Numbered from the stretch's first letter, positions 2,200 to 16,460 are shown. The stretch: DNA of 16,460 nt from Planctomycetota bacterium (GCA_024274785.1 JAJSAM010000020.1:1-16460); one strand, 5' to 3'. Notes: generated by a model from the letters alone, not told the origin. Numbers and translations: made by a program.

Positions 2200-2461
2200 G
2201 GTGTCTCTCTCCCCTCGATGGATGCCCGCTCCAAGGATATCGGATACGGGTGGTCCGATTCAATGAGGACGCACGGTGGAGGCGTTGTTTTTTGCGCCGT
2301 GGGTGTGCAGGCGCCGCGGTGGTTTCTTGTGCGGGCGCTCGGAGGGCGCCGGTCCCTCGGCGCCCTTGGTGGGGCGCGGACGAGACGGAGCTCGTCCCTC
2401 CTGGGCGCGTGCATCAGTGCTCTCGGTCCTGCGAACCAACTCTTGCGCGAGCCCCAAGGGG

Positions 2462-2508: not shown

Positions 2509-2751
2509 ATGGGTGCGGCGAAAATCGCAATCAGCCTGGATAAAGCGCTGCTGAAGAAGCTTGACCGGCTGGTCAGGTCAAGTGTCTTTCCGAGCAGAAG
2601 TCGCGCCATTCAAGATGCGCTCACCGAGAAACTGGCGCGTCTGGAGCGAACCCGTCTCGCTCGGGAGTGCGCGAAACTCGATCCGGCAGACGAAAAAGCG
2701 TTGGCTGAAGAAGGCATGGCTGCGGAGATTGCCGAGTGGCCCGAATACTGA
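2509..2751 (+). CDS. Type II antitoxin of the ribbon-helix-helix (CopG family), cognate to the downstream MazF/PemK toxin.
   Basis: The 80-aa product has an N-terminal beta-strand ([17 protein letters not shown]) followed by two helices. There is a strong SD (GGAGGTG). The stop overlaps the start of the toxin gene by 16 nt. The track placed this segment at the tail of a spurious 721-aa ORF. Confidence 0.8.
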
Positions 2752-3074
2752 GGGGAGAAGTGCGATGGGCGGACCTGGCACCCACGCGAGGCCGCGAGCA
2801 GTCGGGGCGACGTCCGGTCCTGGTCATCAGCCAGGACGTATTCAACGCCCGCTCGGGAACAGTGATTGCGCTGGCGATCACGAGTCAGCCCCAGAAAGCA
2901 GGGTTCCCACTGACGCTCGAGCTTGCTTCGACGAAGCTGCCGAAGCGCTCATGGGTGAAGATCGGACAGATCCGAACTCTCTCAGTAGAGCGAATCGGCC
3001 GGAAGCTTGGCACGGTGGCTCCGGAAGAACTGGTTGCCTCGCTCGAGGGGCTGCATGAGATTGTGGGAACCTGA
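2736..3074 (+). CDS. mazF: Type II toxin of the MazF/PemK endoribonuclease family.
   Basis: The 112-aa product reads [32 protein letters not shown]...[10 protein letters not shown], the canonical PemK/MazF fold signature. The start is GTG, with GGAGA 8 nt upstream. It overlaps the antitoxin gene, the usual TA organisation. Confidence 0.9.
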
Positions 3075-3239
3075 CCAGCCGTTGCAGCCGACCAGCTTCT
3101 CCGGCGGCTGATCGGGCACCGCGGTCTACAGCTCGCCCATGTATTGCATGCTGTTGATGGCGACCATGAACCTTCTGGTGCCGAACTTCACCGACGCGGC
3201 GTCCACCAGCGGGACATACCGCTCCGGCTTCACCGTGAC

Positions 3240-4577
3240 TCAGTTCACCACGGTTCTCGCGGTGGGGGAGAGGGATGTTACGAACCACTCGCCGTGGTGG
3301 AAGACGATCGAGGCGTGCCTCGTCTCGATGCCCTCGCCGCTCAAGCGGATCGCCGCGTCTCGGGAACCCACTGCCGCCTTGCGGAACACCTGGATGTAGG
3401 TGTGCTGCGGCGTGTTGTCCAGGCGCTCGAGCCGAAGCGCATCGGCCGCGTGGGGATGCTCCGAGCCGACGCTCAGGCTGTCTTTCGGCCCCTCCGCCAG
3501 CGGATAGCCGAGCTTCAGGACCCGGCCGGGTTCGGACGGATAGAAGATCCTGCCGCCCAGGGTCAGCACCTTCTCGGTCCTGGTCAGGCGCAGCTTGAAG
3601 TTCTCGAAGAGCGGGATCCACTCCTTCACGGGAACCGGCTTGCCGTCGAGCAGCATGCCGTTCGTGCTGCCGGGATCCTGCACGCAGACGACATGGTCGC
3701 GCAGGCGAAAGGAGCCGTGGAATCTGGAGATCTGGCGGCTCAACGTGAGATTCCGATGATCCTGACGCTCGGAGCGGCAGGGAAGACATCGCAATACCAG
3801 CGGAATGGCGATATCCTCCTCGCGCAACTTGTCGAAGGTCGTCGGCTTCACTCCAAAGCGCAGCTCCCGCCTGGCGAACAGGAAGTAGCGCCGTTCCCTC
3901 CCCGCACCGGACGTCCGCTCCAGCAGGACGAGTTGCCGGACGCCCTCGTCCCGCCGCAGGCCGGGCTCCACCCAGCCGTCCGGTCGCGGGATGAGTTCCA
4001 GGGGAGCCCAGTTCCCTCTTTTCCCATTCCCGCGGTCCTTGTCCTGACTCTTGACCAGGTCCGAGATCTTCACGTCGCCGGTGTGGTTGTGGAACTTGAA
4101 CTTCGCACCGCTGACATCGGCGTTGAGTCCCTCGACCAGGTCGGCGATCGAAACATCCCCGACGTGCTCGTCAAACTCGAAGGTAACGCCCCGGAGGTCG
4201 ACTTCCCCACCCGCCTCTCCCGGATGGGCCACCTGAAACACCACCGAGTGATCCAGGACGTGGAGCAAGCGGGGGGACCTCTCTCCGGTGATCTGCAACT
4301 GAACGAGGATGGACGAGACCATCTCCTCCCCGGGCGTGTCGGGAGTGAACTGAAACCGGATGTCCTTCGCCTCGCGGGGAGTGAGCTGGATAGTCGCCGT
4401 CGTCTTCGCGAGCTCGATCCCCGGTACGTCGATGGACATGGTCAGCCGACCGCTGGTGTCGGTCAGATTCCGCACCTTGAAGTGCAACAGGCAGTGGTCG
4501 CCGACCCGGTAGCGCCGGGCCTGGTCGATCTCGACGAGGATGCCACTCTGAGCGAGGATTCTTGGATCTATGGACAC
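3240..4577 (-). CDS. Tandem FHA-domain protein. The N-terminal region contains an internally duplicated 27-aa module. The first FHA domain is complete, with GSTNG. The second FHA domain is terminated by an in-frame TGA.
   Basis: FHA1 reads ISRFHGSFRLRDHVVCVQDPGSTNGMLLDGKPV. FHA2 reads AIRLSGEGIETRHASIVFHHGEWFVTSLSPTARTVVN followed by a stop. I prefer the start GTG at 4577, 13 nt after the upstream stop and with AGGGAAG upstream. The track's longer GTG start at 4643 would overlap the upstream gene by 53 nt and has no SD. If the TGA at 3240-3242 is read through, the frame continues to TAG at 3126-3128. Confidence 0.75.
   Translation of the reverse strand: MSIDPRILAQSGILVEIDQARRYRVGDHCLLHFKVRNLTDTSGRLTMSIDVPGIELAKTTATIQLTPREAKDIRFQFTPDTPGEEMVSSILVQLQITGERSPRLLHVLDHSVVFQVAHPGEAGGEVDLRGVTFEFDEHVGDVSIADLVEGLNADVSGAKFKFHNHTGDVKISDLVKSQDKDRGNGKRGNWAPLELIPRPDGWVEPGLRRDEGVRQLVLLERTSGAGRERRYFLFARRELRFGVKPTTFDKLREEDIAIPLVLRCLPCRSERQDHRNLTLSRQISRFHGSFRLRDHVVCVQDPGSTNGMLLDGKPVPVKEWIPLFENFKLRLTRTEKVLTLGGRIFYPSEPGRVLKLGYPLAEGPKDSLSVGSEHPHAADALRLERLDNTPQHTYIQVFRKAAVGSRDAAIRLSGEGIETRHASIVFHHGEWFVTSLSPTARTVVN
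4053..4214 (-). repeat. Tandem in-frame duplication (2 x 81 nt) inside the FHA-protein gene. It encodes two copies of a 27-aa module (G-x-x-F-x-F-x-x-H-x-G-D-V-x-I-x-D-L-V).
   Basis: The plus-strand units gaccaggtccgagatcttcacgtcgccggtgtgg... (4053-4133) and gaccaggtcggcgatcgaaacatccccgacgtgc... (4134-4214) have a period of exactly 81 nt. The protein copies are GVTFEFDEHVGDVSIADLVEGLNADVS and GAKFKFHNHTGDVKISDLVKSQDKDRG. Confidence 0.6.
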
Positions 4578-4590
4578 GCGTTGTTCTTCC

Positions 4591-6456
4591 CTAAGTACCC
4601 GGAGGGGGACCGCAGAACGGGCAGGCCCTGCCCGTGTAATCACAGCCGCAGGAGTGGCACTTTTTCACCACCTCCGGCTTCTCCTCTTCCTTCTTTTTCG
4701 CGCCGACCACATCCCGGATCGCCTCCGCTTCGCGATCACCCGCCGTCGCCCGGGTCTCGACGGCCTTTGCCATGGCGTCGAAGGAGCGGTCCACCATCTT
4801 GTGGAGCAGCACGTCGTCCTTGTCCGCAGTGTCCCGCCGCACCGAGTCGAGTCGCTCCCGGAACTCCTTCTCCTTCGCCGCGGTCTCCTCGGCGTGTGTC
4901 TTTGAGAAGTACTCCTTCATCACCTCCTGCATACCGGCGTCCCCCTCGGCGCCGAGCGCGATGACGAGCTCCGGCGCCATGTCTTTGCCGGCCTGAAGGA
5001 CCGTGGCCTTCGCGCCGGCGCCGGTCAGTTTCTCCTCCCGCGCCAGCCGGGACTTCAACTCCTTCATGGTGGAGTAGAGGTCCACTCTCAGGCGCTTGTT
5101 CGTCGCCTCGAGCTGGTCCGCCCGCTCCTTCACGTCGAGTTCGCCCATGGCCCGGCGCTTCCACGAATCGTCTTCGAGCTGCCTGGTGTAAGCCCCGAAG
5201 TCGACCTCGGCCGTACGATTCGCAATGTCGGCGACCGCCTTCTTGCGGTCCTCTTCGATCAACTGCTCCAGCTTCATCAGCCGGTTCTCGCCGCTTTTCA
5301 GCACCTCCGCCCGGTCCAGCTCGAAGCGCTGCTCCAACTCGATTTTCCGCACCAGGAAGTCCCGAGCCCGGTGGCGGTCGTCCTGCTCGTAGGAGAGCTG
5401 GTCGGTCAAGGCATCCAGGTCGCTCTCGCCGATCAGCTTCTTCTCGAGCTGTTCCTGCGCGGTGCTCCGCAGGAACTCCTTCATGGAGGACTCGTCCTTG
5501 ACCTCCTCCATCCGGGCGTGCTGCATGCTCTTTCTCAGGTCGGCCCACGCCTCGGCCTTCTTCGCGTGCCACTCGGCATCCTGCTTCGCCAGCGCGTGCT
5601 CTTCCTTCTCCTTCTCGAGGAGCAGCGCCCGCTCCTTCATGATCTCGCGAATGTCGTCGAGATCCGGCACATGCACGTCGAGGGTCTCCACGCGGTGCAT
5701 CACCAGGCCGTAGCCCTCCAGCGTGGTCCGCATGTGGGCCCGGATCGTCCCGTTCAGCTTCTCCTTGAAATCCTCGTTGCCGATCACCTCGCTGGCGATC
5801 CACCCGCCGGCGGCATCCTCCACGGCGTTCCGGACCACGTCCTGGAGGCGGTGGCCGATGGCCTTCGTGGTCAGGGAGACGGCACTCTTCATCAGGTTGG
5901 TGAGCAGACGCTCGGGGTTGTTGATCTCGAGAACCACCCTCGTATCGATATCCATCGGGATGCCGTCACTCGAGCGCACCGAGTGGAAGGTGTAGCGCAG
6001 CGGGAACTCCGAGAGGTCGAAGTAGACGACCTCCTTGCGCCGGGCACCCTCCGCCCCGACCTGGAGATCCCGGAAGGTGCTCTCGATGGCGTGCGAGCCG
6101 GGGTCGAGCGTCTTGAGAAACGCCCCATCCCCGAGAAGCATCGCGCCGTGGCCGAAACGCACGGTGATCTGTCCGCTGACGGCGTGCTCCTTCGTGTCCA
6201 CCCGGTATTTCCGGGAGAGCTCCCCGGCATCGGGATCCCACAGGAAATCGAAGGAGATCTCCCGCTCGATCGGCGGAAGCTCCATCCCGCACCGATGGCA
6301 GATCTTGTCGGTCGGTGTGGCGATGCCGTCACAACCCTCCTTGGTGCACACGCGGTACACGTTGGGCCCCGGGGCGCCGCAGTTCGGGCAGAACCGGCAC
6401 TCCTCCGGCAGCGGCTTCCGGCAGCTCGTGCACTTGTCTTTCTTGTCGAAGATCAT
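4591..6456 (-). CDS. Flotillin-like SPFH (band-7) domain protein. It has two N-terminal and one C-terminal Cys4 zinc-ribbon motifs and a long E/K/R-rich coiled coil.
   Basis: The 621-aa product has these parts. N-term: CTSCRKPLPEECRFCPNCG and CTKEGCDG...CHRCG. SPFH core: ITVRFGHGAMLLGDGAFLKTLDPGSHAIES...IPMDIDTRVVLEINNPERLL. Coiled coil: about 330 aa of heptad-like charged sequence. C-term: CHSCGCDYTGRACPFCG. The gaps to the flanking genes are 11 and 13 nt. Confidence 0.8.
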   Translation of the reverse strand: MIFDKKDKCTSCRKPLPEECRFCPNCGAPGPNVYRVCTKEGCDGIATPTDKICHRCGMELPPIEREISFDFLWDPDAGELSRKYRVDTKEHAVSGQITVRFGHGAMLLGDGAFLKTLDPGSHAIESTFRDLQVGAEGARRKEVVYFDLSEFPLRYTFHSVRSSDGIPMDIDTRVVLEINNPERLLTNLMKSAVSLTTKAIGHRLQDVVRNAVEDAAGGWIASEVIGNEDFKEKLNGTIRAHMRTTLEGYGLVMHRVETLDVHVPDLDDIREIMKERALLLEKEKEEHALAKQDAEWHAKKAEAWADLRKSMQHARMEEVKDESSMKEFLRSTAQEQLEKKLIGESDLDALTDQLSYEQDDRHRARDFLVRKIELEQRFELDRAEVLKSGENRLMKLEQLIEEDRKKAVADIANRTAEVDFGAYTRQLEDDSWKRRAMGELDVKERADQLEATNKRLRVDLYSTMKELKSRLAREEKLTGAGAKATVLQAGKDMAPELVIALGAEGDAGMQEVMKEYFSKTHAEETAAKEKEFRERLDSVRRDTADKDDVLLHKMVDRSFDAMAKAVETRATAGDREAEAIRDVVGAKKKEEEKPEVVKKCHSCGCDYTGRACPFCGPPPGT

Positions 6457-6467
6457 CGCTTTTCCTT

Positions 6468-8060
6468 CTACGCCGTCGTGCCGAAGTAACTCTTGCGTTC
6501 ATCGAGCTTGCCGTCGATCTCGAGGGCCATCGCCCGCATCAGCTTCAGGTGCTTTTCGGGGTTGCCGCCGGCGACGACCGAGTCACAGGCCGCCTTCGCC
6601 TCGCGCGTCAGCTCCTTGATCTGTCCGCTCACCGCGGTCTGGAACGACACCAGCCTGTCCAGGTTCTCCTTCGGAAGCTTGCCCTTCAGGAAGTCCTGGG
6701 CCTCTCCGTCCGCGGCGAACTTCACCTGGTTCTGCAACTCCTCGATCCGCTCACTCGCCGAGAGGATACTCCTGGCCGAATCGGCGTTCCCGGCTTCACG
6801 CGCCTGGTGGTGCGCCTCGGCCAGGGCCTTCTTCGAACTCTTCAGCTCGCGAAGGAGCAGGGCCCGGAGATCCTTGTCTTGCTGCAACACCTCGCGAACA
6901 TGGTCGGCCTCGTTGGCTTCCGTCCCGGCCGCGGTGATGCCTCGCTCGCGACGCCGGACCGGCTCCCGCTTCTTCATCGCCCGGCGGATCACCAGGCCGA
7001 GGAACAGGACCGCGATGAGCCCGAAGCCGATGTAGAGGACGATCGGGTTGTCCCTGAGGAAGGACCATGCCTTCGCCTCCCTGCTGTCCCCGGGCGCGCC
7101 CGGAATGAGGTTTCTGATCCGCTGGCACTCCGCCTTCAACCATTGGTCGCCCTGGTGCCCGCTCTCGAGCTCCTCGACCAGAGCGATCACGCGGTCGCGA
7201 TCGACCTTCCCGGCGAGCACCGCTTCCCAGGCCGGCGTCGTCAGCATCCGCCGGACGTCGTTCAGGAAGTCGCTGAGGGCCGGGCGGACGCTCGGATCGG
7301 CCTCACTGTACAGGTCGTTGATCAGGCGATAGGCCTCGTCCGCATTCCCGAGGTCGATCTGTCCCTGGATCTTCGCCAGGGCGGTGGCCTGGGATCGGAG
7401 GGTCTCCGCCCGGTTCTTCAGCAGGCCGAGCTCGGTGCCGAGCTCCGGATTCGACGCCACCGCGTCGGCGATCCGGGCCAGGCATTCGTCGATCTTCCCG
7501 GCGGCGAGCAGGCGGTTCAGGTTCTCGAGGACGGCGAGGTCCACGATGTCGGAGAGGTCGCTCCCCCAGACCTTCTCGGCGGTCTTCGCCACCCAGAGGG
7601 AGAGGTCCACGGTCGGCTTGAACTTGCCTCCGCCGAGGTCTTCCACGCCATACCGGACGAACAGCAGCCCCTGCGCCGCCTTGAATTTCCAGCCCAGCTC
7701 GTCGTAGGTCGCCGGGTTGTAGCGGATCTCCTCGGGATTCATGAACGCCTGGTCCACGAACTCCTTCACTCCCTCGTACGGCCAGACCTCGGTCAGACCA
7801 TCCACCCGGGCGATGGCGTTGCTCAGGGGTTTCTTGAGATCTTCCGCCAGCGGACCGTCGGGGCCCACGAACAGCGCAAGGTGCTCGATGCCGGCCTTCC
7901 CCAGCTCACCCGAGGAGACCAGGTCCTGCTCGATCTGCCGGACCGCCCAGTCCCTGAGCTTCTCCAGCGCGATGCGCTCTTCGGCGACGCCCGCCATCAG
8001 GGGGGCCGCCGTGGCGATCAGCACGGCCAGCGCGATCGTGATGATCCTTGCGGTTTTCAT
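6468..8060 (-). CDS. Bitopic membrane protein of unknown function. It has a signal peptide, a periplasmic domain of about 290 aa, one TM helix and a cytoplasmic coiled-coil tail of about 190 aa.
   Basis: The start ATG at 8060 is preceded by AGGAGAG. The signal peptide is MKTARIITIALAVLIATAAPLMAG and the TM helix is IVLYIGFGLIAVLFLGLVI. The C-terminal region is charged and helical. The track's longer MCKERT start lacks an SD. Confidence 0.7.
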   Translation of the reverse strand: MKTARIITIALAVLIATAAPLMAGVAEERIALEKLRDWAVRQIEQDLVSSGELGKAGIEHLALFVGPDGPLAEDLKKPLSNAIARVDGLTEVWPYEGVKEFVDQAFMNPEEIRYNPATYDELGWKFKAAQGLLFVRYGVEDLGGGKFKPTVDLSLWVAKTAEKVWGSDLSDIVDLAVLENLNRLLAAGKIDECLARIADAVASNPELGTELGLLKNRAETLRSQATALAKIQGQIDLGNADEAYRLINDLYSEADPSVRPALSDFLNDVRRMLTTPAWEAVLAGKVDRDRVIALVEELESGHQGDQWLKAECQRIRNLIPGAPGDSREAKAWSFLRDNPIVLYIGFGLIAVLFLGLVIRRAMKKREPVRRRERGITAAGTEANEADHVREVLQQDKDLRALLLRELKSSKKALAEAHHQAREAGNADSARSILSASERIEELQNQVKFAADGEAQDFLKGKLPKENLDRLVSFQTAVSGQIKELTREAKAACDSVVAGGNPEKHLKLMRAMALEIDGKLDERKSYFGTTA

Positions 8061-8082
8061 GGTTCTCTCCTTGCACATCCCA

Positions 8083-8997
8083 CTAGCGGTTGGTGTTCAC
8101 TTCGACTTCGGTCCGGTTGTCCGTACCGCTCTGCTCGAGTCTCTTTTCGAGGAGCGAGGCGAGGTCGCCCTCGTAGTCCCGGGCGAGCCACAGCGTGAAG
8201 GTCGCGGACGAATCTGCCGGGTCCTTGATCAGGTCGGCCAGCACCACGCCCTCCTCGTCGCCGATGGCGCCCTCGATCGCATCGCACCACGCGTCGAGGT
8301 CGACCTCCCCGGATTCGGTGGAAAGGGAGACGACCTTCACGCGGGTCTCAACCGCGTACTCGCTCACCTTTTCGTGGACGAGGTCGGCGGCGGTGGTGCA
8401 CATCCGGTCGAGCACCTGCCGCGTGGCGCGGGCCTCGGTGAGGTCGGCTCCGCTCTCAGCCGAGAGGGGAGCGCGGTAGAGTGGCCGCCCATCCGACCTG
8501 CGATCCACCGCCACGTCCCCGTCCCCGTGTACCTGGACGCGCCCGGCGCCGAGTTCCATGACCTTCCACGCCTTCAGGTTCAGGCGGATGAGGACCTGCG
8601 CGGCGGCGTGGCCCGTCGTCCCGGGTGCGGCGAGGCGAAGGCCCCGGTCGAGGAGATGCTGCTCGAAGAGTACCCGGATCGCCCCGGTCTCGTCGCTGCC
8701 GTCCTTCTTCGCCTGGATCTCGAGTTGAAGCGCGTATTCCTCAAGCGCCGGGTTCTTCGTCGTCTCCGGGACGTGGAGGTTCACCACCGGGGCGCTCTTT
8801 TTCACCTCGAGCTTCATTCTGGCCTGACGCAGGGTCGGCTGTGGCTCGGCCCCGGGCCCGGCTTCGGCTTCGTGCTCGAGTCGGGGCGGAGGGGCCTTCT
8901 CGACGGGATCCGGAACCGCGGTGCATCCCGAGGCCAGCACCGCCACTCCGAGGATCATCGCCCCGAGCAGCGAATTGCGAATGCGGTCAGCCATCAT
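8083..8997 (-). CDS. Lipoprotein of unknown function (signal peptide with lipobox L-A-S-G-C).
   Basis: The product begins MMADRIRNSLLGAMILGVAVLASGCTAV. There is a very strong SD (GAGGAGGAAGAG) directly upstream. It is the first gene of the four-gene minus-strand operon. Gene gaps are 22, 11 and 13 nt. Confidence 0.8.
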   Translation of the reverse strand: MMADRIRNSLLGAMILGVAVLASGCTAVPDPVEKAPPPRLEHEAEAGPGAEPQPTLRQARMKLEVKKSAPVVNLHVPETTKNPALEEYALQLEIQAKKDGSDETGAIRVLFEQHLLDRGLRLAAPGTTGHAAAQVLIRLNLKAWKVMELGAGRVQVHGDGDVAVDRRSDGRPLYRAPLSAESGADLTEARATRQVLDRMCTTAADLVHEKVSEYAVETRVKVVSLSTESGEVDLDAWCDAIEGAIGDEEGVVLADLIKDPADSSATFTLWLARDYEGDLASLLEKRLEQSGTDNRTEVEVNTNR

Positions 8998-9031
8998 GTC
9001 TCTTCCTCCTCGATATCACACTGCGGGAGAA

Positions 9032-9047
9032 AGCAAGGAACAGGCCA
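9032..9047 (-). promoter_or_regulatory. Sigma54 (RpoN) -24/-12 promoter element TGGCCTGTTCCTTGCT in front of the four-gene operon.
   Basis: The minus strand reads a-TTTGGCCTGTTCCTTGCTT. This gives GG-N10-GC spacing against the consensus TGGCACG-N4-TTGCW, with the -12 element TTGCT perfect. The predicted transcription start is near 9021, about 24 nt upstream of the ATG at 8997. The transcript includes the SD. Confidence 0.55.
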
Positions 9048-9151
9048 AATGAGAATACGAAAGGCCACGGCCGGAAAGCGGCGAAGACGGCGAAATGCGT
9101 GAACCCGCAATCCCTCCCGTGAGCGACGGCTCACATGGCCCGATCCTGAAT

Positions 9152-10213
9152 TTAGCCCGCCTCGCCCTGGCGGTCAACGCCGTCTGTGCCGAGATCGGGG
9201 CGTCGCGGGAGGACCATGGTCAGCCTCGCGCCGCCATGGGGGAGATTTGTCGCCTCGATGCGGCCGAAATGCTCCTTCGCGGCTTCCATGATCAGGGAGA
9301 TGCCTTCCCCGCTGCCGGAAGTGGAGATGCCGCGCTCGCCGAAGTGCTTCAGAACCTCCTCGGTGAACCCGTCGCCGTCATCCGTGACGGTGATCAGGGT
9401 GTCGGTGGAGGGCGGTCGGGCCTCCTCGACGCGCACCGTGACCCGCGTGGCCTGTCCGCCGTGGCGCACCACGTTGCGCAGGAGTTCCGCCACCGCGTCG
9501 GCGATGCGGGGTTCATCGAGGAACAGGCGCGCGCCGCCGTCGGTCTCGTCGTCGTACTCGAGGGTGATCCCCGCTTCGGTCAGCATCGGCTCGAGGGCCC
9601 GGACAGCCTGCTCCACCGGCCGGCTGAGAGGCGCCTTGCGGCTGTCGAGCCAGGTGCGCAGCGAGGAGAGGGACTCGGTCAGGAGGTCCACCTTCTCGGT
9701 GACCGCGTTCCCGGTGAGCTTCTTCGTGTCCAGCTTGTAGATCTCGCACAGCTTCAGCACGCCCTTCGTGGCGCCGAGAGCGGCCTTGCAGGAGAGCGGC
9801 AGAAGGTCTTTCAGGCTGACGCCCATCACGAGTGGCCGGGAGAAGAACGAGACGACCTGGTCGGCGACGCTGGGGATGAGGGCGACCTGTTTTCCGAGGC
9901 TCTTCAGCAGGCCGGCGTCCTCCGGGCAATCGTTCATGGCCTGGCCGAAACTCTTCAGGTTCATCAGGCATGATTCGACCACGGAGTGCCGCAGTGCGGA
10001 GTCCAGCCGGGCGAGCACGTGGAGGGCGCGCACGTCGAGATCCTCGGGCCGTTTCGGGGGCGTTTCCGGCGGGGGGAGAACCTGCGTGATCGCCTCGACT
10101 CTCCGGACGAATCGCGCGGATCGTTCCCGATCCTCGGGCGTCAGCATGCGATCGAGGCTGGCGAGGATGCGTTTCTCCTCCACCTTCACCGCCGCGCGGG
10201 CGGCCGCCTCCAT
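9152..10213 (-). CDS. Soluble (non-membrane) sensor histidine kinase with a C-terminal HATPase_c domain. The start is uncertain.
   Basis: N-box ELLRNVVRHG, G1 VTDDGDGF and G2 GSGEGISLI are present near the C-terminus. No TM segment is seen and the N-terminal part is coiled-coil-like. The ATG at 10213 has GGAGGAG 5 nt upstream. Alternative starts are ATG 10246 and the track's TTG 10366. The gene is divergent from the sigma54 activator gene. Confidence 0.65.
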   Translation of the reverse strand: MEAAARAAVKVEEKRILASLDRMLTPEDRERSARFVRRVEAITQVLPPPETPPKRPEDLDVRALHVLARLDSALRHSVVESCLMNLKSFGQAMNDCPEDAGLLKSLGKQVALIPSVADQVVSFFSRPLVMGVSLKDLLPLSCKAALGATKGVLKLCEIYKLDTKKLTGNAVTEKVDLLTESLSSLRTWLDSRKAPLSRPVEQAVRALEPMLTEAGITLEYDDETDGGARLFLDEPRIADAVAELLRNVVRHGGQATRVTVRVEEARPPSTDTLITVTDDGDGFTEEVLKHFGERGISTSGSGEGISLIMEAAKEHFGRIEATNLPHGGARLTMVLPRRPDLGTDGVDRQGEAG

Positions 10214-10427
10214 GTTCTCCTCCTGCCGGCGGTAGCTCTCCTCCATCTTCTCGATGCGTTTCCGGTAGGCGCTGCCAGGGTCGTCGTTGCTCAATGGACT
10301 CTCTCCCGGTGGGTGTTCCGCGGGGTCTGACACAATCAACGTGCCAAAGCGGGAGGGAGTGTGCAAGGGCGTGGCGGCGAACTCCTTCCTCGACTACGAT
10401 GAGCGGTGGCGGGCGCGGAGGGCAAAC

Positions 10428-11921
10428 ATGCATCGCATTCTGATCGTGGATGACAAGGCGGACGAGTTCGAGCCGGGGCTTCGGGCCATCTTTCCCCGGG
10501 ATCATCTCGTCCTCGTCCACTCCGGAAAAGAGGCGCTCGCGGTGCTTTCCGAGGACGAGGTGTTCGACGTCGTGCTGCTCGACATCCGGATGCCCGCCGA
10601 AATGGGCTCCTGCGACGAGGAGGAGGGGCTCGCGGTGCTGGTCCGGCTCTGTGACGAGTGGCCGGAGCTGCCGGTGATCCTCCTCTCCGTGCTCTCCGAC
10701 GTGGAGACGGTGGTCCGGGGCATGAAGCACGGCGCGTTCTACTACGTCCAGAAGCCGCCGGACCGGGGGAAGCTCCGCCACCTCGTCGCGAAGGCCGCGG
10801 AGCGCAGCCGCAGCGCCGCGGAGCGGCAGACCTTGAAGGAGATCATCGACCTGCGCGACGTCGCGGCCACCGGCTCCATCACCTCCGGGACGAGAACCGG
10901 GCTGGGCAGCCTGGTGGGCCGGAGCGCCCCGATGCAGGCTCTCTTCGGTCTCATCGAGCGGGTGGCGCGCGCGAACGCCACGGTCCTCATCCTCGGGGAG
11001 ACGGGCACCGGCAAGGAGCTGGTGGCGAAGGAGATCCACCGGCTGAGCCCGAGGTCGGGCAAGGCCCTCAGGGTGGTCGGTTGCCCGAACATCGCGAGGG
11101 AGCTGCTCGAGTCCACGCTCTTCGGGCATCGGCGGGGGGCCTTCACCGGCGCGGAAGTGGATCGCGAGGGCGAATTCGTGCTGGCCGATGGCGGAACGCT
11201 GTTTCTCGACGAGGTCGGCGAGCTGGAATCGACTCTCCAGGCCAAGCTTCTGCGCGCCCTCGAGACCGGTGAGGTTCACCCGCTCGGCTCCCGCGACCCG
11301 GTGAAGGTGGATGCCCGGATTGTCTCCGCCACGCATCGCGATCTCCGTGAGCTGGTGGGGGAGGGCACCTTCCGGGAGGATCTCCAGTACCGCCTGAATG
11401 TCCTCCGCGTGGAGCTGCCGCCGCTGCGGGATCGCCTGGACGATCTCCCGTTCCTGGCCCCGGCGCTCCTCGGGAAGATCGCCCCGGATCGCCCCGGCCT
11501 GCATCTCTCCGCCGAGGCTCTCGGCCGGCTCGAGACCCACTCCTGGCCGGGCAATGTGCGGGAACTGAGAAACGTCCTCGAGCGCGCCGCGGCTCTCACC
11601 GATGGCGACGAGATCACGCCGGACGCGATCCAGATCGACCGGGACGCCGAGCCGGGGACGACGAATCCCGCCGAGGCCGCTTTCGCCCGGGCGCTGGCCG
11701 GCCGGCCGTTTGAGGGTGGGATCAGGAGGTTTCGTGACCAGCACGGCGAGGTGGCCTTGAAGGACCTCCTGATCCGGGCGCTGCGCACCACGACGAATGT
11801 CCGCCGGGCGGGGGAGCTGCTGGGTTTCATCGGCGCGGAGGACCCGAAGCGGGACTACGACAACCTCCGCCAGTGGATGCGGAAGCTCGAGGTGTCGAAG
11901 CGAAGCGCGCTGGGGGGGTGA
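10428..11921 (+). CDS. Sigma54-dependent response regulator of the NtrC family (REC + AAA+ sigma54-interaction domain + C-terminal HTH).
   Basis: The REC domain has acidic residues and VVLLDIRMP. The Walker A motif is GETGTGKE. The GAFTGA motif is intact in [10 protein letters not shown]. The Walker B motif is [10 protein letters not shown]. The C-terminal HTH reads [25 protein letters not shown]. The start ATG at 10428 has GGAGGG upstream. The track's longer TTG extension is unlikely. Confidence 0.9.
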
Positions 11922-11946: not shown

Positions 11947-13674
11947 TCAGAGGTCCGGCACCGGGTGAGCTCGCTCCCACGCGAGGTGCCGGCGCAACTG
12001 GAGGAGCTGCCCCAGGGGGAACACCAGGGGCCAGATGGGTATCAGGAGCAGCCTGCTGATGAGTCCGGGGCCTCTCCATTCCTCCGCGATCCGGGCGCGC
12101 TCCTCCGTGAGCCACTCGGGATCCTGCCGGGTGAAGGCGATCACCTCGGCCTCTTCACGGCGATGCCGGCGCAGGACGACTTCGAAGAGGACCCAGCAGG
12201 TGATCAGCAGCCCGAACTGCAGAAACAGGGATGGAAAGTAGAGGATGATCCCGAGATCCGCGTCGTCCAGCTCGTCGAAGAATCCGTTGAAGTCTTCCAG
12301 CAGAAGGATCAGCAGTCCGAAGGCCGACGCCGCCGCGAGGACGATCATCGCCCGGCGCAGGAGCCGCAGTTTCGCCGGGGGGGGAACTCTCCCTGCAAGG
12401 CCCGGTTTCGGCTCTCCCGATCCGGCGGTTGAGAGAACCCGGGAGAGTTCGATCTGGCGGCGTCGGATGTGGTCGATGAGGGCATAGATCATCAGCAGCG
12501 CGCAGATCGGCGCCAGGCTCGGATAGAAGGGGAGCAGGAGGGCCTGCAGCGAGCCGAGGAGGATGCAGAGCGTGGTCAGCGAATCGATGGACCATCCCGT
12601 GGCGGGCTCGGTCCGGGCCGGTGGGTTCGCGGGCGGTTCGGGGGAGGTCGGGGCCGGGGCGGGGGCCGGGGCGCTGCATTCCGATCGGTCGGAGGGCTCG
12701 TCCGGCGGCGGGATTCGTTCGGGCGCCGGCAGGGGTGGCGGCGCGGGTGATGGGAGGGGCGGGAGAGGTGGTGGCGGCCGGGAGGGCGGCGCGGCGGGCG
12801 GCCCTTGCGGCCTGGTGGGTGGCTTCGGCGGCACCGGGGGCGATTCGAGGATCGCCTTGCAGCTCGCCGGTCGATCAGCGGGATCCTTCGAGAGCGCTTC
12901 CATGATTCGCGTGACCAGCAAGGAGCCGGAGGTATTGGGCGCCCTGGGCTCCTTCTGCGCGATCTGCACCGCGATCTCGCCCCGATGGAACGGGGGGCTT
13001 CCGGCGAGGCATTCGTACATGGTCGCGGCGAGGGAGTAGATGTCCTGGGCCGCGGTGGGCGGTTCGCCGAAGAGCTGTTCCGGGGACATGTAGGGCAGGG
13101 TCCCGGAGGAGCTCTGACCGGTGATCCGGGTCAGGCTGTCCTTCAGCTCCCGGGCGATGCCGAAGTCGGTGAGGAAGGGGCGGCCATCCTCCCGGACGAG
13201 GATGTTGCTCGGCTTGATGTCGCGGTGGATCACCTTTTCGCTGTGTGCGTAGTCGAGGGCCAGGGCGAGCGGCGTGAAGAACTCCACCACCTCTTCCTCG
13301 GTGAGTGTCTCCCGCTCGCCGAGGACGTCCTGGAGGGTCTCCCCCGGAACAAAGTCCATGACCAGGAAGACGTCGCCCTCGCTCTGCTCGATGGTGCGCA
13401 GGGTCACGATGTTGGGATGGGAGAGCCGCCGCGCCAGCAGGGCCTCCTGCTGCATACGCCGCACCACCTTGACGTCCTGTGCGAGGAGGATCGCCGGCAC
13501 CTTGATCGCCACCAGGAGGTCGTCGAGCTGGGTGTCCGCGGCGAGCAGCACTTTCCCCATGGCCCCCTGCCCGAGTTCGCGCAGGACCCGGTAGCGCCCC
13601 AGCAGAACCAGTGGTCCTGCCCCTTCGCAGGTATCCTCGTCGCCACTCAGCGGATCGATGAACTCGCCACTCAT
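11947..13674 (-). CDS. Hanks-type Ser/Thr protein kinase with a Pro/Ala-rich linker and a C-terminal polytopic (about 4 TM) membrane domain. It is a paralogue of the kinase at 1-2199.
   Basis: Motifs seen are [28 protein letters not shown] and [10 protein letters not shown]. The Pro-rich segment reads PPVPPKPPTRPQGPPAAPP...APAPAPTSPEPP. Four hydrophobic helices follow. The start ATG (MSGEFIDP) at 13674 has GAGG 7 nt upstream. Confidence 0.85.
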   Translation of the reverse strand: MSGEFIDPLSGDEDTCEGAGPLVLLGRYRVLRELGQGAMGKVLLAADTQLDDLLVAIKVPAILLAQDVKVVRRMQQEALLARRLSHPNIVTLRTIEQSEGDVFLVMDFVPGETLQDVLGERETLTEEEVVEFFTPLALALDYAHSEKVIHRDIKPSNILVREDGRPFLTDFGIARELKDSLTRITGQSSSGTLPYMSPEQLFGEPPTAAQDIYSLAATMYECLAGSPPFHRGEIAVQIAQKEPRAPNTSGSLLVTRIMEALSKDPADRPASCKAILESPPVPPKPPTRPQGPPAAPPSRPPPPLPPLPSPAPPPLPAPERIPPPDEPSDRSECSAPAPAPAPTSPEPPANPPARTEPATGWSIDSLTTLCILLGSLQALLLPFYPSLAPICALLMIYALIDHIRRRQIELSRVLSTAGSGEPKPGLAGRVPPPAKLRLLRRAMIVLAAASAFGLLILLLEDFNGFFDELDDADLGIILYFPSLFLQFGLLITCWVLFEVVLRRHRREEAEVIAFTRQDPEWLTEERARIAEEWRGPGLISRLLLIPIWPLVFPLGQLLQLRRHLAWERAHPVPDL

Positions 13675-13778
13675 GGTCAACCTCGGCCCGGTGAACACCC
13701 GGGACCGCCAGAGGATAGATCCCCTCCGCCCCCGGAGACAAGGGGTCAGGTCTGACTTTTGTCCGTATCCCGACATTT

Positions 13779-14732
13779 TCAGCCGCCGGAAGCCCACTCC
13801 AGGTTGCCGCCGGAGAGGACGATGCCGACTCTCCGAGTGCCCTCGAGAGCCTGGAACTCACCGGTCAGTACCGCGGCCAGGGTTGTTGCCGCGCTCGGCT
13901 CGATCACGATTTTCATGCGGGTCATCACGAGGTGCAGGGCGGTTCGGATCTCGTCGTCGGTGACTCGCACCACGCGCTCGAGATGATCCCGGAGGATCGG
14001 CCAGGTCAGGTCGCCGAGGCTCGTCAGGAGGCCGTCGGCAATGGTGTCCGGTGCGGTCTGGGGGATCAGGCGGCCGGCGGCCAGGGAACGCCAGGCGTCG
14101 TCCGCGCCGTGGGGCTCGGCGGCGATCAGGTGGAGATCCGGGTTCATCCCACGGGCGGCCACGCAGATGCCCGACATCAGCCCGCCACCACCCACCGGCG
14201 CCACGATGGCGTCGAGATCCGGCACATCCTCGAGCAGTTCCAGCGCCACGGTGCCCTGGCCGGCGATGACGTCCTGGTGGTTGAACGGGTGCAGCAGCGT
14301 CGCCCCCGTCGCCGCGACGACTTCCGCGGAGCGCTCCTCCCGCGCGGCCAGGGTCGGTTCGCAGTCGTAGACGGTCGCTCCATAGCCGATTGTTGCCGCC
14401 CGTTTCACCGCCGGGGCCGACGTCGGCATCACGACGTGAGCGGGAATCCCCCGCGCCCGGGCGGCGAGCGCGAGCGCCTGGGCGAAGTTGCCGGAGGAGT
14501 GGGTGGCGACGCCCCGCCCCGCCTCCGCGGCGGCGAGCGCGAACACCGCACTCGCCGCGCCGCGCATCTTGAACGCGCCGCCCCGCTGGAAGTTCTCGCA
14601 CTTGAAGAAGAGCTCGCGCCCGGCCAGTTCGTCGATCAGGCGGGAGGTCAGCACCGGGGTGCGGTGGATGTGGGGCCGGATGCGCTCGGCGGCCATACGC
14701 ACCGCCCTCAGGTCCGTGGCATCGTTGTTCAT
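13779..14732 (-). CDS. PLP-dependent threonine/serine dehydratase family enzyme (fold-type II; catabolic-type, no ACT domain).
   Basis: The 317-aa product has FKCENFQRGGAFKMRGA (the PLP-lysine motif), HSSGNFAQA and the glycine-rich GGGGL loop. It lies 100 nt upstream of, and co-oriented with, kinase 2. Confidence 0.85.
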   Translation of the reverse strand: MNNDATDLRAVRMAAERIRPHIHRTPVLTSRLIDELAGRELFFKCENFQRGGAFKMRGAASAVFALAAAEAGRGVATHSSGNFAQALALAARARGIPAHVVMPTSAPAVKRAATIGYGATVYDCEPTLAAREERSAEVVAATGATLLHPFNHQDVIAGQGTVALELLEDVPDLDAIVAPVGGGGLMSGICVAARGMNPDLHLIAAEPHGADDAWRSLAAGRLIPQTAPDTIADGLLTSLGDLTWPILRDHLERVVRVTDDEIRTALHLVMTRMKIVIEPSAATTLAAVLTGEFQALEGTRRVGIVLSGGNLEWASGG

Positions 14733-15931: not shown

Positions 15932-16381
15932 CTACCCCGCAGTCAACGCCTCGATGACTTCTTCCCCGGTGTCCGCGGTCTCCAGCGCCTCCTTCAGAAC
16001 GGGGTCGTTCAGGATGCTGGAGATGTGGCTCAGCACCAGGACATGGGGGCTCGTGGCGCCAGGATCGGAGACGACCAGGATGAAGATGCGACAGGGCTGG
16101 TGATCGATGGAATCGAACGGAATGGGCTTCCTGGCGATGCCCACAGAGATCATGACGCCATCGACGCAGGCGGTCTTGGCGTGAGGAATCGCCACGCCCC
16201 GGCCGATGCCGGTCGACATGACCTCCTCGCGCTCCAGGACCGCATCAAGGATTTCATCCCGGCCGCCGTTTCCGCCTTCGAGAGGCAGCGCGGAAACCAG
16301 CCGCCGGATGATCTCCTTCTTCGACCCCTTTTTCAGGTCGAGGAGGATGCATTCGGGCTTCAGGAGTTCGTTGAAGTCCAT
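15932..16381 (-). CDS. ptsN: PTS EIIA-Ntr nitrogen regulatory protein (PtsN-like, fructose/mannitol-type EIIA).
   Basis: The 150-aa product (MDFNELLKPECILLDLKKGSKKEIIRRL...) has STGIGRGVAIPHAK (the phosphorylatable His region). The track's TTG-extended start is unlikely. The gene is not next to rpoN/hpf here. Confidence 0.75.
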   Translation of the reverse strand: MDFNELLKPECILLDLKKGSKKEIIRRLVSALPLEGGNGGRDEILDAVLEREEVMSTGIGRGVAIPHAKTACVDGVMISVGIARKPIPFDSIDHQPCRIFILVVSDPGATSPHVLVLSHISSILNDPVLKEALETADTGEEVIEALTAG

Positions 16382-16460
16382 CGGGGGAGTATGTGACGGC
16401 GGGAACCTCGCACCTAGCAAGATTCGCCGGGCAGATCTCGCGGCGCCTCGAAGACGGGGG

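What the first reader, a model, noticed from the sequence alone, without database searches (positions are those of the whole stretch)
9032..9047. Near-consensus sigma54 promoter in front of the operon
Minus strand TGGCCTG-TTCC-TTGCT reproduces the invariant GG (-24) and GC (-12) with the exact 10-nt spacing and a perfect TTGCW -12 box. It sits about 35 nt upstream of the first ATG, with the SD inside the predicted leader. A cognate bEBP is encoded nearby. Sigma54 promoters are rare and position-specific, so this is unlikely to be chance.
Basis: seen in the sequence. Interest (0 to 1): 0.6.

Follow-up and report, generated by a model that had tools for sequence, protein, structure and literature searches.

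The report
Conserved sigma-54 promoter with upstream activator site
The motif is very probably a real sigma-54 promoter, kept with its upstream activator-binding site in six related metagenomic loci, and it drives a four-gene membrane-associated operon next to its likely regulator: a sound but ordinary finding.

Summary
TGGCCTGTTCCTTGCT lies at 9047..9032 (-), with GG and GC separated by 10 nt and the -12 C 36 nt before the ATG at 8997.

- **Matrix scores.** A matrix from 87 Desulfovibrio vulgaris sigma-54 promoters gives 22.0 bits, above 98% of those promoters; 0 of 600 random windows reach it. A Salmonella matrix gives only 13-15 bits, because of C and T where enteric promoters have A and C.
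- **Conservation.** In five close loci the -24 box (8/8) and -12 box (5/5) are invariant. The 4-nt promoter spacer (1/4) and the 49 nt upstream (4/49) drift. A distant sixth locus keeps GG-N10-GC in place.
- **Activator site.** A dyad GTGAG-N6-CTCAC plus a second imperfect site sit at -105.5 and -85.5. They are conserved in all seven loci, and helical phase is kept in the distant one.
- **Regulator.** The neighbouring regulator has receiver, AAA+ (GAFTGA) and C-terminal domains, and its synteny is conserved.

It is a new member of a known kind. Transcription start, rpoN dependence and activator binding remain untested.

The parts
9032..9047 (-). Core sigma-54 promoter P_op, TGGCCTG-TTCC-TTGCT. 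GG is at 9046/9045 and GC at 9034/9033. The 19-mer scored is 9049..9031.
   Evidence: Sequence read. Only TGGC-N7-TTGCW match in the window. Scores 22.0 bits with the D. vulgaris matrix, above 98% of training promoters, and 13-15 bits with the Salmonella matrix. -24 box 8/8 and -12 box 5/5 invariant in five loci.
9021..9022 (-). Predicted transcription start (A9022/G9021), 12 nt downstream of the -12 C. It gives a 24-nt leader.
   Evidence: Inferred from standard sigma-54 promoter geometry. Leader length is 24 nt in five loci and 22 nt in L008. Not mapped experimentally.
9119..9134 (.). Candidate upstream activator site 1: perfect dyad GTGAGCCGTCGCTCAC (core GTGAG-N6-CTCAC), centred at -105.5.
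   Evidence: Only exact match in the window. 0.01 expected per 16.5 kb, yet present once at the same place in all seven loci. 13/16 positions invariant, including in distant L008. Distance to the start is -105.5, -107.5 or -84.5.
9099..9114 (-). Candidate activator site 2: imperfect repeat GGGATTGCGGGTTCAC (G.GA-N7-TCAC), 20 bp from site 1, centred at -85.5.
   Evidence: GGA and TCAC are invariant in all seven loci, and the 20-nt spacing is invariant.
9026..9033 (-). CT-rich stretch CTTTCTCC in the untranscribed -12..-5 part of the promoter. It is complementary to the Shine-Dalgarno sequence and could silence read-through transcripts.
   Evidence: Predicted hairpin of -11.1 kcal/mol. The Shine-Dalgarno sequence is 1% unpaired in a read-through RNA and 49% unpaired in the sigma-54 transcript. 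Strong in four loci, weak in L006, absent in L008. The mechanism is described by Levy et al., bioRxiv 10.1101/086108.
9001..9011 (-). Shine-Dalgarno sequence GAGGAGGAAGA of the first gene.
   Evidence: Invariant in five close loci.
8083..8997 (-). Gene 1: 304-aa predicted lipoprotein with a signal peptide and LASGC. No family match.
   Evidence: ORF. No Pfam or NCBIfam hit. Only two homologues in the 5.8-billion-protein collection. The lipobox was read by eye.
6468..8078 (-). Gene 2: 536-aa protein with no family match. Begins 4 nt after gene 1.
   Evidence: 79% identical to the L001 orthologue.
4591..6456 (-). Gene 3: 621-aa protein with zinc ribbons at both ends and an SPFH/Band 7 domain.
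   Evidence: Pfam Band_7 at 4.4e-15. Four homologues only.
3240..4577 (-). Gene 4: FHA-domain protein. An in-frame TGA at 3242..3240 cuts off the last 37 codons relative to L001.
   Evidence: Pfam FHA at 8.5e-13. tblastn against the L001 FHA protein covers 4577..3129. L001 has Gly at the stop position.
9149..9177 (-). Sigma-70-like promoter TTGACC-N17-TAAATT, with a predicted start near 9142. Activator site 1 would lie at about +8..+23 of it.
   Evidence: Consensus scan finds 1 site against 0.1 expected. Hexamers 6/6 and 5/6 invariant in five close loci while the 17-nt spacer is 6/17; absent in L008.
9152..10294 (-). Histidine-kinase-like gene (380 aa, TTG start). It has a HATPase_c domain and invariant His92/His103 (LRHSVVES), but no HisKA match and no recognised sensor domain.
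   Evidence: Start confirmed by alignment of five loci.
10330..10348 (-). Second sigma-54-type promoter P_hk, TTTGGCACGTTGATTGTGT, about 35 nt before the kinase start. Its -12 box is TTGT.
   Evidence: 12.6 bits in the window. Orthologous sites score 17.9, 18.8, 16.3 and 17.1 bits in L006, L007, L008 and L009, each 33-38 nt before the kinase start.
10428..11921 (+). Divergent NtrC-family activator gene: receiver domain, AAA+ sigma-54 interaction domain with GAFTGA, and a conserved C-terminal domain.
   Evidence: Pfam Sigma54_activat 6.7e-62 and Response_reg 1.2e-15. 62% identical to the L008 orthologue, including the C-terminus. RtcR-type AAA-HTH profiles align to residue ~490.

Best explanation
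The site is a sigma-54 (RpoN) dependent promoter, P_op, for a four-gene operon: lipoprotein, a 536-aa protein, a zinc-ribbon SPFH protein and an FHA protein.

Proposed mechanism, step by step:
1. Sigma-54 RNA polymerase binds TGGCCTG-N4-TTGCT as a closed complex.
2. The NtrC-family response regulator encoded divergently 1.4 kb upstream is presumably phosphorylated by the kinase-like protein encoded between the two.
3. The regulator binds two 16-bp sites on the same face of the helix, GTGAG-N6-CTCAC at -105.5 and a weaker copy at -85.5.
4. It oligomerises, loops the poorly conserved intervening DNA, and uses ATP hydrolysis through its GAFTGA loop to open the promoter.
5. Transcription starts near 9021 and gives a 24-nt leader with an exposed Shine-Dalgarno sequence.

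Shown here: the sequence, the matrix score, conservation of the promoter and dyad, conserved spacing and phase, the domains of the regulator, and conserved synteny.

Inferred: sigma-54 binding, the transcription start, which protein binds the dyad, and phosphotransfer.

Secondary proposals, less certain:
- The kinase gene has its own sigma-54 promoter.
- The CT-rich -12..-5 stretch pairs with the Shine-Dalgarno sequence in read-through RNA and keeps gene 1 untranslated unless P_op itself fires.
For: - **Sequence and geometry.** Exact as described.
- **Matrix score.** The matrix from 87 D. vulgaris promoters (PMC4641369) gives 22.0 bits, above 98% of leave-one-out training scores. No site in 600 random windows reaches it. 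The set contains DVU1962, which has the same TGGCCTG box.
- **Top site in each close locus.** Orthologous sites are the best hit in L001, L002, L006 and L007, at 19-20 bits.
- **Footprint.** -24 box 8/8 and -12 box 5/5 invariant, against 1/4 in the promoter spacer and 4/49 in the upstream spacer.
- **Distant locus.** L008 (kinase 46% identical) keeps GG-N10-GC at the same distance from the start codon.
- **Dyad.** Expected 0.01 per window, yet present at the same place in seven of seven loci. The distance to the start differs by exactly 21 nt in L008.
- **Regulator.** It has a receiver, AAA+ with GAFTGA, and a conserved C-terminal domain. Its synteny is kept in L006 and L008.
- **Promoter position.** The 19-mer begins 52 nt before the ATG, within the range listed for D. 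vulgaris promoters.
- **Binding to this box type.** A TGGCCTG-type site is predicted under a sigma-54 ChIP-enriched gene (proP) in Salmonella.
Against: - The Salmonella matrix gives only 13-15 bits, below all 29 training sites. 4.3% of random windows reach that score. The A normally contacted at position 5 of the -24 box is a C here.
- The L008 site scores only 5.7 bits.
- rpoN could not be seen; the contig ends 40 nt beyond a PtsN-like gene.
- A 19.7-bit match sits inside an unrelated coding region (L005). That locus was found by searching for this exact 23-nt pattern, so it only shows that sequence alone does not prove function.
- The regulator's C-terminal domain has no Pfam HTH match, and the structure search gave nothing.
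- The dyad is absent near the second promoter P_hk.
- Only seven loci from one narrow uncultured lineage are available.
Confidence: 0.65

Rival explanations
1. The sigma-54 promoter is real, but the neighbouring regulator is not its activator. The dyad would then be an operator for another protein. One candidate role is a repressor of the overlapping sigma-70-like promoter.
For: No tool recognised a DNA-binding fold in the regulator's C-terminus. The dyad lies at about +8..+23 of the sigma-70-like promoter. No copy of the dyad lies near P_hk, although that promoter sits next to the regulator gene.
Against: The position (-105/-85), the two sites 20 bp apart, and phase kept over a 21-nt length change are typical of activator sites. 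Regulator, kinase and operon stay together in L006 and L008. The regulator's C-terminus and the dyad are both conserved in the distant locus. RtcR-type AAA-HTH profiles cover the C-terminus.
Confidence: 0.17
2. The operon is transcribed mainly from the sigma-70-like promoter at 9177..9149, or by read-through from the kinase gene. The -24/-12 element would then bind sigma-54 without promoting transcription, or be inactive.
For: TTGACC-N17-TA(A/G)ATT is conserved in six of seven loci, while its spacer varies. No terminator-like site follows the kinase gene. Many sigma-54 binding sites in Salmonella are not promoters (PMC3844500).
Against: The sigma-70-like element is missing in L008, where the -24/-12 spacing and the dyad persist. 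Its TA(A/G) is the kinase stop codon in two loci, and TTGACC lies in coding sequence. Transcripts from it would carry the anti-Shine-Dalgarno stretch and translate gene 1 poorly. The -24/-12 boxes show the base-specific footprint expected of a working sigma-54 promoter.
Confidence: 0.08
3. The conserved block acts at the RNA level, as a leader structure or anti-Shine-Dalgarno element, and only resembles a promoter.
For: CUUUCUCC pairs with the Shine-Dalgarno sequence at -11 to -14 kcal/mol in four loci.
Against: - No Rfam match, even at E<=1.
- Folding energy equals that of shuffles (z = 0.21).
- The covariation term is unfavourable at +0.81, and the stems are invariant.
- The pairing stretch is the less conserved part of the block (4/10), while TTGGCCTG and TTGCT, which are not needed for pairing, are invariant.
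- Pairing is absent in L008.
Confidence: 0.05
4. The motif is a chance match with no function.
For: The 16-nt pattern alone is expected 0.14 times per window. An unrelated coding region carries a 19.7-bit match.
Against: The site is conserved at the same place in six loci whose neighbouring non-coding DNA has diverged to near-random. The score exceeds the top score of all 600 random windows.
Confidence: 0.02

Closest known systems
Sigma-54 promoters of Desulfovibrio vulgaris Hildenborough (Kazakov et al. 2015, PMC4641369), e.g. DVU1962 TTTGGCCTGCCTCTTGCTT and DVU2405 TTTGGCCCCTTCCTTGCTT
   Same: Same -24 box variant (TGGCC[T/C]), the same TTGCTT -12 box and a pyrimidine-rich spacer. Similar distance to the start codon, and activator sites mostly within about 100 nt.
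   Different: The organism and the genes are different, and no orthology is implied. The D. vulgaris set is itself largely a comparative prediction, supported by 5' RNA-seq.
Enteric sigma-54 promoters (consensus TGGCACG-N4-TTGCW; Salmonella set in PMC3844500)
   Same: GG/GC spacing, the TTGCT -12 box and the T-rich stretch after GC.
   Different: C and T replace A and C at positions 5 and 6 of the -24 box. The score falls below all 29 Salmonella intergenic sites. In that study TGGCCTG is seen only at a predicted intragenic site (proP) under a ChIP-enriched gene.
Myxococcus xanthus two-component and activator loci with sigma-54 promoters (nla6S-nla6, nla28S-nla28; PMC9765219)
   Same: A sigma-54 promoter stands in front of a kinase gene adjacent to an NtrC-family regulator. 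Multiple short activator half-sites lie upstream, and the -24 and -12 boxes are degenerate in a GC-rich genome, e.g. TGGCCCA and GTGTT.
   Different: There the kinase and regulator are co-transcribed, whereas here they are divergent. The binding motif also differs: CT(C/G)CG(C/G)AG direct repeats against a GTGAG-N6-CTCAC dyad.
Insulated sigma-54 promoters such as E. coli glnKp (Levy et al., bioRxiv 10.1101/086108)
   Same: A CT-rich motif sits in the untranscribed part of the promoter, within 25 nt of the Shine-Dalgarno sequence. It is predicted to sequester that sequence only in read-through RNA.
   Different: Here it is only a prediction. It is not conserved in the most distant locus.
E. coli glnAp1/glnAp2 tandem promoters (textbook knowledge, not checked in a paper here)
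   Same: A sigma-70 promoter lies roughly 115-120 nt upstream of a sigma-54 promoter, with activator sites overlapping the upstream promoter. One protein could therefore repress one promoter and activate the other.
   Different: The sigma-70-like element here is only a 9/12 consensus match, it partly overlaps the kinase stop codon, and it is missing in L008.

Membership tests
Sigma-54 (RpoN) dependent -24/-12 promoter | GG and GC doublets separated by exactly 10 nt | tested here: met
   GG at 9046/9045 and GC at 9034/9033. Kept in all six loci that reach this point.
Sigma-54 (RpoN) dependent -24/-12 promoter | Weight-matrix score within the range of known promoters | tested here: met
   22.0 bits with the D. 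vulgaris matrix, at the 98th percentile of training scores. Only 13-15 bits with my matrix of 29 Salmonella sites, below all of those sites. For comparison, PMC3844500 reports 10.9-23.6 for confirmed promoters on its own, different matrix.
Sigma-54 (RpoN) dependent -24/-12 promoter | Intergenic, pointing at a gene, tens to a few hundred nt before the start codon | tested here: met
   Lies in the 154-nt gap between the kinase stop (9152) and the ATG (8997), on the same strand. The -12 C is 36 nt before the ATG.
Sigma-54 (RpoN) dependent -24/-12 promoter | Conservation of the informative positions in orthologous loci | tested here: met
   -24 box 8/8 and -12 box 5/5 invariant, spacer 1/4, flank 4/49.
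Sigma-54 (RpoN) dependent -24/-12 promoter | rpoN present in the genome | not testable with these tools
   The contig is 16.5 kb, and no relative was found among the reference genomes. Indirect support comes from an intact GAFTGA activator and a PtsN-like gene at the contig edge.
Sigma-54 (RpoN) dependent -24/-12 promoter | Transcription start about 12 nt after GC, and expression dependent on rpoN and an activator | not testable with these tools
   Needs 5' end mapping and mutants.
Sigma-54 (RpoN) dependent -24/-12 promoter | Upstream activator sequence roughly 80-150 nt upstream | tested here: met
   Two sites at -105.5 and -85.5, conserved in seven loci with phase preserved. Binding was not tested.
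NtrC-family enhancer-binding response regulator | Receiver domain with an acceptor Asp, and AAA+ sigma-54 interaction domain with GAFTGA | tested here: met
   Pfam Response_reg and Sigma54_activat. LLDIRMP and [10 protein letters not shown] are conserved in the L008 orthologue.
NtrC-family enhancer-binding response regulator | C-terminal Fis-type helix-turn-helix (Pfam HTH_8) | tested here: inconclusive
   No Pfam hit at E<=1, no PDB sequence hit and no fold match for a pLDDT-72 helical model. However, RtcR-type AAA-HTH profiles align through residue ~490.
NtrC-family enhancer-binding response regulator | Membership of a named orthologue group (NtrC, ZraR, AtoC, PspF and others) | tested here: not met
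   All 25 listed NCBIfam equivalog matches fall far below their cut-offs, e.g. ntrC 324 bits against 558.6.
Insulated sigma-54 promoter (CT-rich anti-Shine-Dalgarno; Levy et al.) | CT-rich motif in the untranscribed promoter part, within 25 nt of the Shine-Dalgarno sequence and able to pair with it | tested here: met
   CTTTCTCC at 9033..9026. Hairpins of -11 to -14 kcal/mol in four loci, weak in L006, absent in L008.
Insulated sigma-54 promoter (CT-rich anti-Shine-Dalgarno; Levy et al.) | Reduced translation of read-through transcripts | not testable with these tools
   Needs a reporter with an upstream constitutive promoter, with and without mutation of the CT stretch.
Two-component histidine kinase | HisKA/DHp domain with a phospho-acceptor His, plus a HATPase_c domain | tested here: inconclusive
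   HATPase_c at 1.9e-16, no HisKA hit. Invariant His92 and His103 lie in a helix-like LRHSVVES motif.

The most novel reading that the evidence does not exclude
The 180-nt gap may hold a three-layer lock on an uncharacterised envelope module (lipoprotein, SPFH, FHA, Ser/Thr kinase) of an uncultured lineage.

- One activator dyad would switch on the sigma-54 promoter and, at the same time, block an overlapping sigma-70-type promoter.
- A CT-rich anti-Shine-Dalgarno stretch built into the untranscribed part of the sigma-54 promoter would silence any read-through from the kinase gene.
- The kinase gene itself would be sigma-54 driven.

This would be a natural example of promoter-encoded translational insulation, conserved among the closer relatives of a lineage known only from metagenomes.
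Probability: 0.15. Interest if true: 0.5.

Novelty: new member of a known kind. Interest (0 to 1): 0.3.

Why it matters
The finding gives a complete, testable regulatory map for a gene cluster with no characterised relatives. Only two to four homologues of the operon proteins searched exist among 5.8 billion proteins. The map comprises a promoter, a start site, an activator site, a likely activator and a likely kinase.

It suggests that the SPFH/FHA module is switched on by a dedicated signal through sigma-54. This agrees with the view, cited in the Levy et al. discussion (Francke et al. 2011), that sigma-54 mostly controls cell-envelope functions.

It also shows a practical point. An enteric sigma-54 matrix under-scores genuine-looking sites in GC-rich bacteria. 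A taxon-appropriate matrix combined with phylogenetic footprinting resolves the question.

As biology it is an expected kind of element.

Tried and rejected
- **Metagenome search for the 23-nt promoter pattern.** It gave one hit, L005, inside an unrelated coding region. This is a chance match, not an orthologue.
- **Reference-genome searches.** Searches with the SPFH alignment and the regulator alignment found no relative, only a 38% identical Bacteroidales AAA+ paralogue. The taxon stays unknown.
- **Source look-ups.** Cluster and contig look-ups for the window's own proteins returned no names or records. A paper search for the sample accessions found nothing relevant.
- **L003 and L004.** These SPFH contigs are too short to reach the promoter.
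- **RNA element.** No Rfam match, no excess folding energy and no covariation.
- **DNA-binding domain of the regulator.** No Pfam HTH at E<=1 and no PDB sequence match. The single-sequence model (pLDDT 72) had no significant fold match.
- **Anti-phage defence profiles.** The operon proteins gave no hit.
- **A copy of the dyad near P_hk.** None within two mismatches.
- **Site at 2610..2592 (-), 13.5 bits.** Judged to be at chance level: about 0.4 sites of 12 bits or more are expected per window. It lies antisense inside an antitoxin gene and has no counterpart in L001.
- **Apparent tandem sigma-54-like site upstream of P_hk in L009.** Not conserved in the other loci, so dismissed.

Full report
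**1. The observation**

The minus strand of 9047..9032 reads TGGCCTGTTCCTTGCT. GG (9046/9045) and GC (9034/9033) are separated by exactly 10 nt, and the -12 box is TTGCT. The -12 C lies 36 nt before the ATG at 8997. The Shine-Dalgarno sequence GAGGAGGAAGA (9011..9001) falls inside the leader that a start near 9021 would give.

The site lies in the 154-nt gap between the stop of a kinase-like gene (9152) and the first gene of a tightly packed minus-strand operon. That operon encodes:
- a lipoprotein, 8997..8083;
- a 536-aa protein, 8078..6468;
- a zinc-ribbon SPFH protein, 6456..4591;
- an FHA protein, 4577..3240.

As a bare pattern the match is weak evidence. TGGC-N7-TTGCW is expected 0.14 times in the window, and 29 of 200 shuffles contain one. 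The looser TGG-N9-TGC occurs 21 times, mostly in coding sequence.

**2. Weight matrices**

I built two matrices from published lists.

| Matrix source | Score of the site | Against training sites | Random windows reaching it |
|---|---|---|---|
| 29 Salmonella intergenic sites under sigma-54 ChIP-enriched genes (Table 3, PMC3844500) | 13-15 bits; best site in the window | Below all 29 (minimum 16.2-16.7) | 4.3% |
| 87 D. vulgaris Hildenborough promoters, 63% G+C (Additional file 6, PMC4641369) | 22.0 bits | Above 98% of leave-one-out scores | 0 of 600 |

The shortfall with the Salmonella matrix comes from C and T at positions 5 and 6 of the -24 box, where enteric promoters have A and C. In the D. 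vulgaris set 16 of 87 promoters have C at that position. One of them, DVU1962, has the identical TGGCCTG box. With that matrix the per-position rate for scores of 18 bits or more is about 1.5e-7.

M. xanthus promoters show similar looseness, for example TGGCCCA (PMC9765219). 'Near-consensus' is true only for GC-rich lineages.

**3. Related loci**

The operon proteins are very rare. The lipoprotein has two homologues and the SPFH protein three in the 5.8-billion-protein collection.

Contigs carrying these proteins or the kinase gave six related loci:
- L001, L002, L006, L007 and L009 are close relatives.
- L008 is distant, with the kinase 46% and the regulator 62% identical.

In every close locus that reaches the gap, the orthologous site is the top matrix hit at 19-20 bits. 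Across the five close loci the alignment gives a textbook footprint:

| Segment | Invariant positions |
|---|---|
| -24 box | 8/8 |
| -12 box | 5/5 |
| 4-nt promoter spacer | 1/4 |
| 49 nt between the upstream site and the promoter | 4/49 |

L008 keeps CGGCCCG-N4-TTGCG, that is GG-N10-GC, at the same distance from its start codon. Its matrix score is only 5.7 bits.

**4. Upstream activator site**

- The core GTGAG-N6-CTCAC is expected 0.01 times per 16.5 kb. It occurs once, at the same place, in all seven loci, including L008, where it overlaps the kinase stop codon.
- Twenty base pairs downstream lies an imperfect copy, GGGAT-N6-TTCAC (9114..9099). Its G.GA and TCAC positions and its spacing are invariant.
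- The two centres lie at -105.5 and -85.5 from the predicted start. In L008 the distance is 21 nt shorter, exactly two helical turns.
- Changes at the sixth stem position in L007 and L009 are not compensatory. This argues for protein half-sites rather than a hairpin.

**5. The likely activator**

The divergent gene at 10428..11921 encodes three parts:
- a receiver domain;
- an AAA+ sigma-54 interaction domain with [10 protein letters not shown];
- a C-terminal region of about 80 residues that is strongly conserved in L008.

Pfam finds no HTH_8 domain. A single-sequence structure model was helical but matched nothing. RtcR-type AAA-HTH profiles do align through residue ~490.

The regulator, kinase and operon stay together in L006 and L008. 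The kinase-like protein has a HATPase_c domain and two invariant histidines, but no HisKA match. That this regulator binds the dyad is an inference.

**6.

(a) *A second sigma-54-type promoter.* TTTGGCACGTTGATTGTGT (10348..10330, minus strand) lies about 35 nt before the TTG start of the kinase gene. It scores 12.6 bits here and 16.3-18.8 bits in L006, L007, L008 and L009, always 33-38 nt before the start codon.

(b) *A sigma-70-like promoter.* TTGACC-N17-TAAATT (9177..9149) was found by the consensus scan, 1 site against 0.1 expected. Its hexamers are invariant or nearly so in the close loci, while its spacer varies. It is absent in L008, and it partly overlaps the kinase stop codon. If it is active, the dyad lies just downstream of its start. 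That arrangement resembles glnAp1/glnAp2 (my own knowledge).

(c) *A CT-rich stretch.* CTTTCTCC (9033..9026) lies in the untranscribed part of the promoter and can pair with the Shine-Dalgarno sequence. In a read-through RNA that sequence is predicted to be 1% unpaired, against 49% in the sigma-54 transcript. No terminator-like site follows the kinase gene. This is the insulation mechanism of Levy et al. (bioRxiv 10.1101/086108). It is strong in four loci, weak in L006 and absent in L008, so it is a secondary and uncertain feature.

**7. Rivals**

- *An RNA element.* No Rfam match, folding energy equal to shuffles and an unfavourable covariation term.
- *Chance.* Excluded by conservation against a diverged background.
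- *A silent sigma-54 binding site with transcription from upstream.* This remains possible at low probability.
- *A real promoter with a different activator.* This is the main residual uncertainty.

**8. Verdict**

This is a well-supported sigma-54 promoter with its activator site and probable two-component regulator, in an uncultured 66% G+C lineage that has no relative among the reference genomes searched.

It is a new member of a known kind. The start site, rpoN dependence and activator binding are untested, and rpoN itself could not be seen because the contig ends 40 nt beyond a PtsN-like gene.

Noticed in passing
window 10330-10348 (-); L006 1274-1292; L007 31-49; L008 2049-2067; L009 88-106: A second conserved sigma-54-type promoter (TGGCACG-N4-TTGT) lies 33-38 nt before the start codon of the kinase-like gene in all five loci that cover it. 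No copy of the GTGAG-N6-CTCAC dyad is nearby, so its activator site is unknown.
   Followed up: partly
window 9149-9177 (-): A sigma-70-like promoter, TTGACC-N17-TA(A/G)ATT, is conserved in six of seven loci while its spacer varies. The TAA or TAG is the kinase stop codon in the window and in L009, but is non-coding in the other four loci.
   Followed up: partly
window 3240-3242 (-): The FHA gene has an in-frame TGA where the L001 orthologue has Gly. The next 37 codons remain conserved, which suggests a recent nonsense mutation, a sequencing error or read-through.
   Followed up: partly
window 2509-3074 (+): A ribbon-helix-helix antitoxin (2509-2751) and a PemK/MazF toxin (2736-3074) lie on the opposite strand between the FHA gene and the next kinase gene. 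L001 has a 302-aa protein kinase gene at this place.
   Followed up: partly
window 1-2259 (-) and 11947-13797 (-): There are two paralogous Ser/Thr kinase genes. The one running off the window start carries four Glucodextran_B / Ig-like repeats after the kinase domain.
   Followed up: no
window 15932-16420 (-): A PtsN-like PTS EIIA gene sits at the contig edge. In many bacteria ptsN follows rpoN and hpf, so rpoN may lie just beyond position 16460.
   Followed up: no
L008 about 2006-2042: A perfect 18-nt-arm palindrome, GGGGTGGAAGAATTGCTC-T-GAGCAATTCTTCCACCCC, ends about 10 nt upstream of the kinase promoter. It is present only in the distant locus.
   Followed up: no
L006 about 1095-1160: Roughly eight tandem copies of an 8-nt unit (CAGTGAAG / CAGTAAAG) lie between the regulator gene and the kinase promoter. 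They are absent from the other loci.
   Followed up: no
L005 384-406 (-): An exact match to the 23-nt promoter pattern, scoring 19.7 bits, lies inside an unrelated coding region of contig RCNH01001472.1. It is a reminder that a high score alone does not make a promoter.
   Followed up: yes
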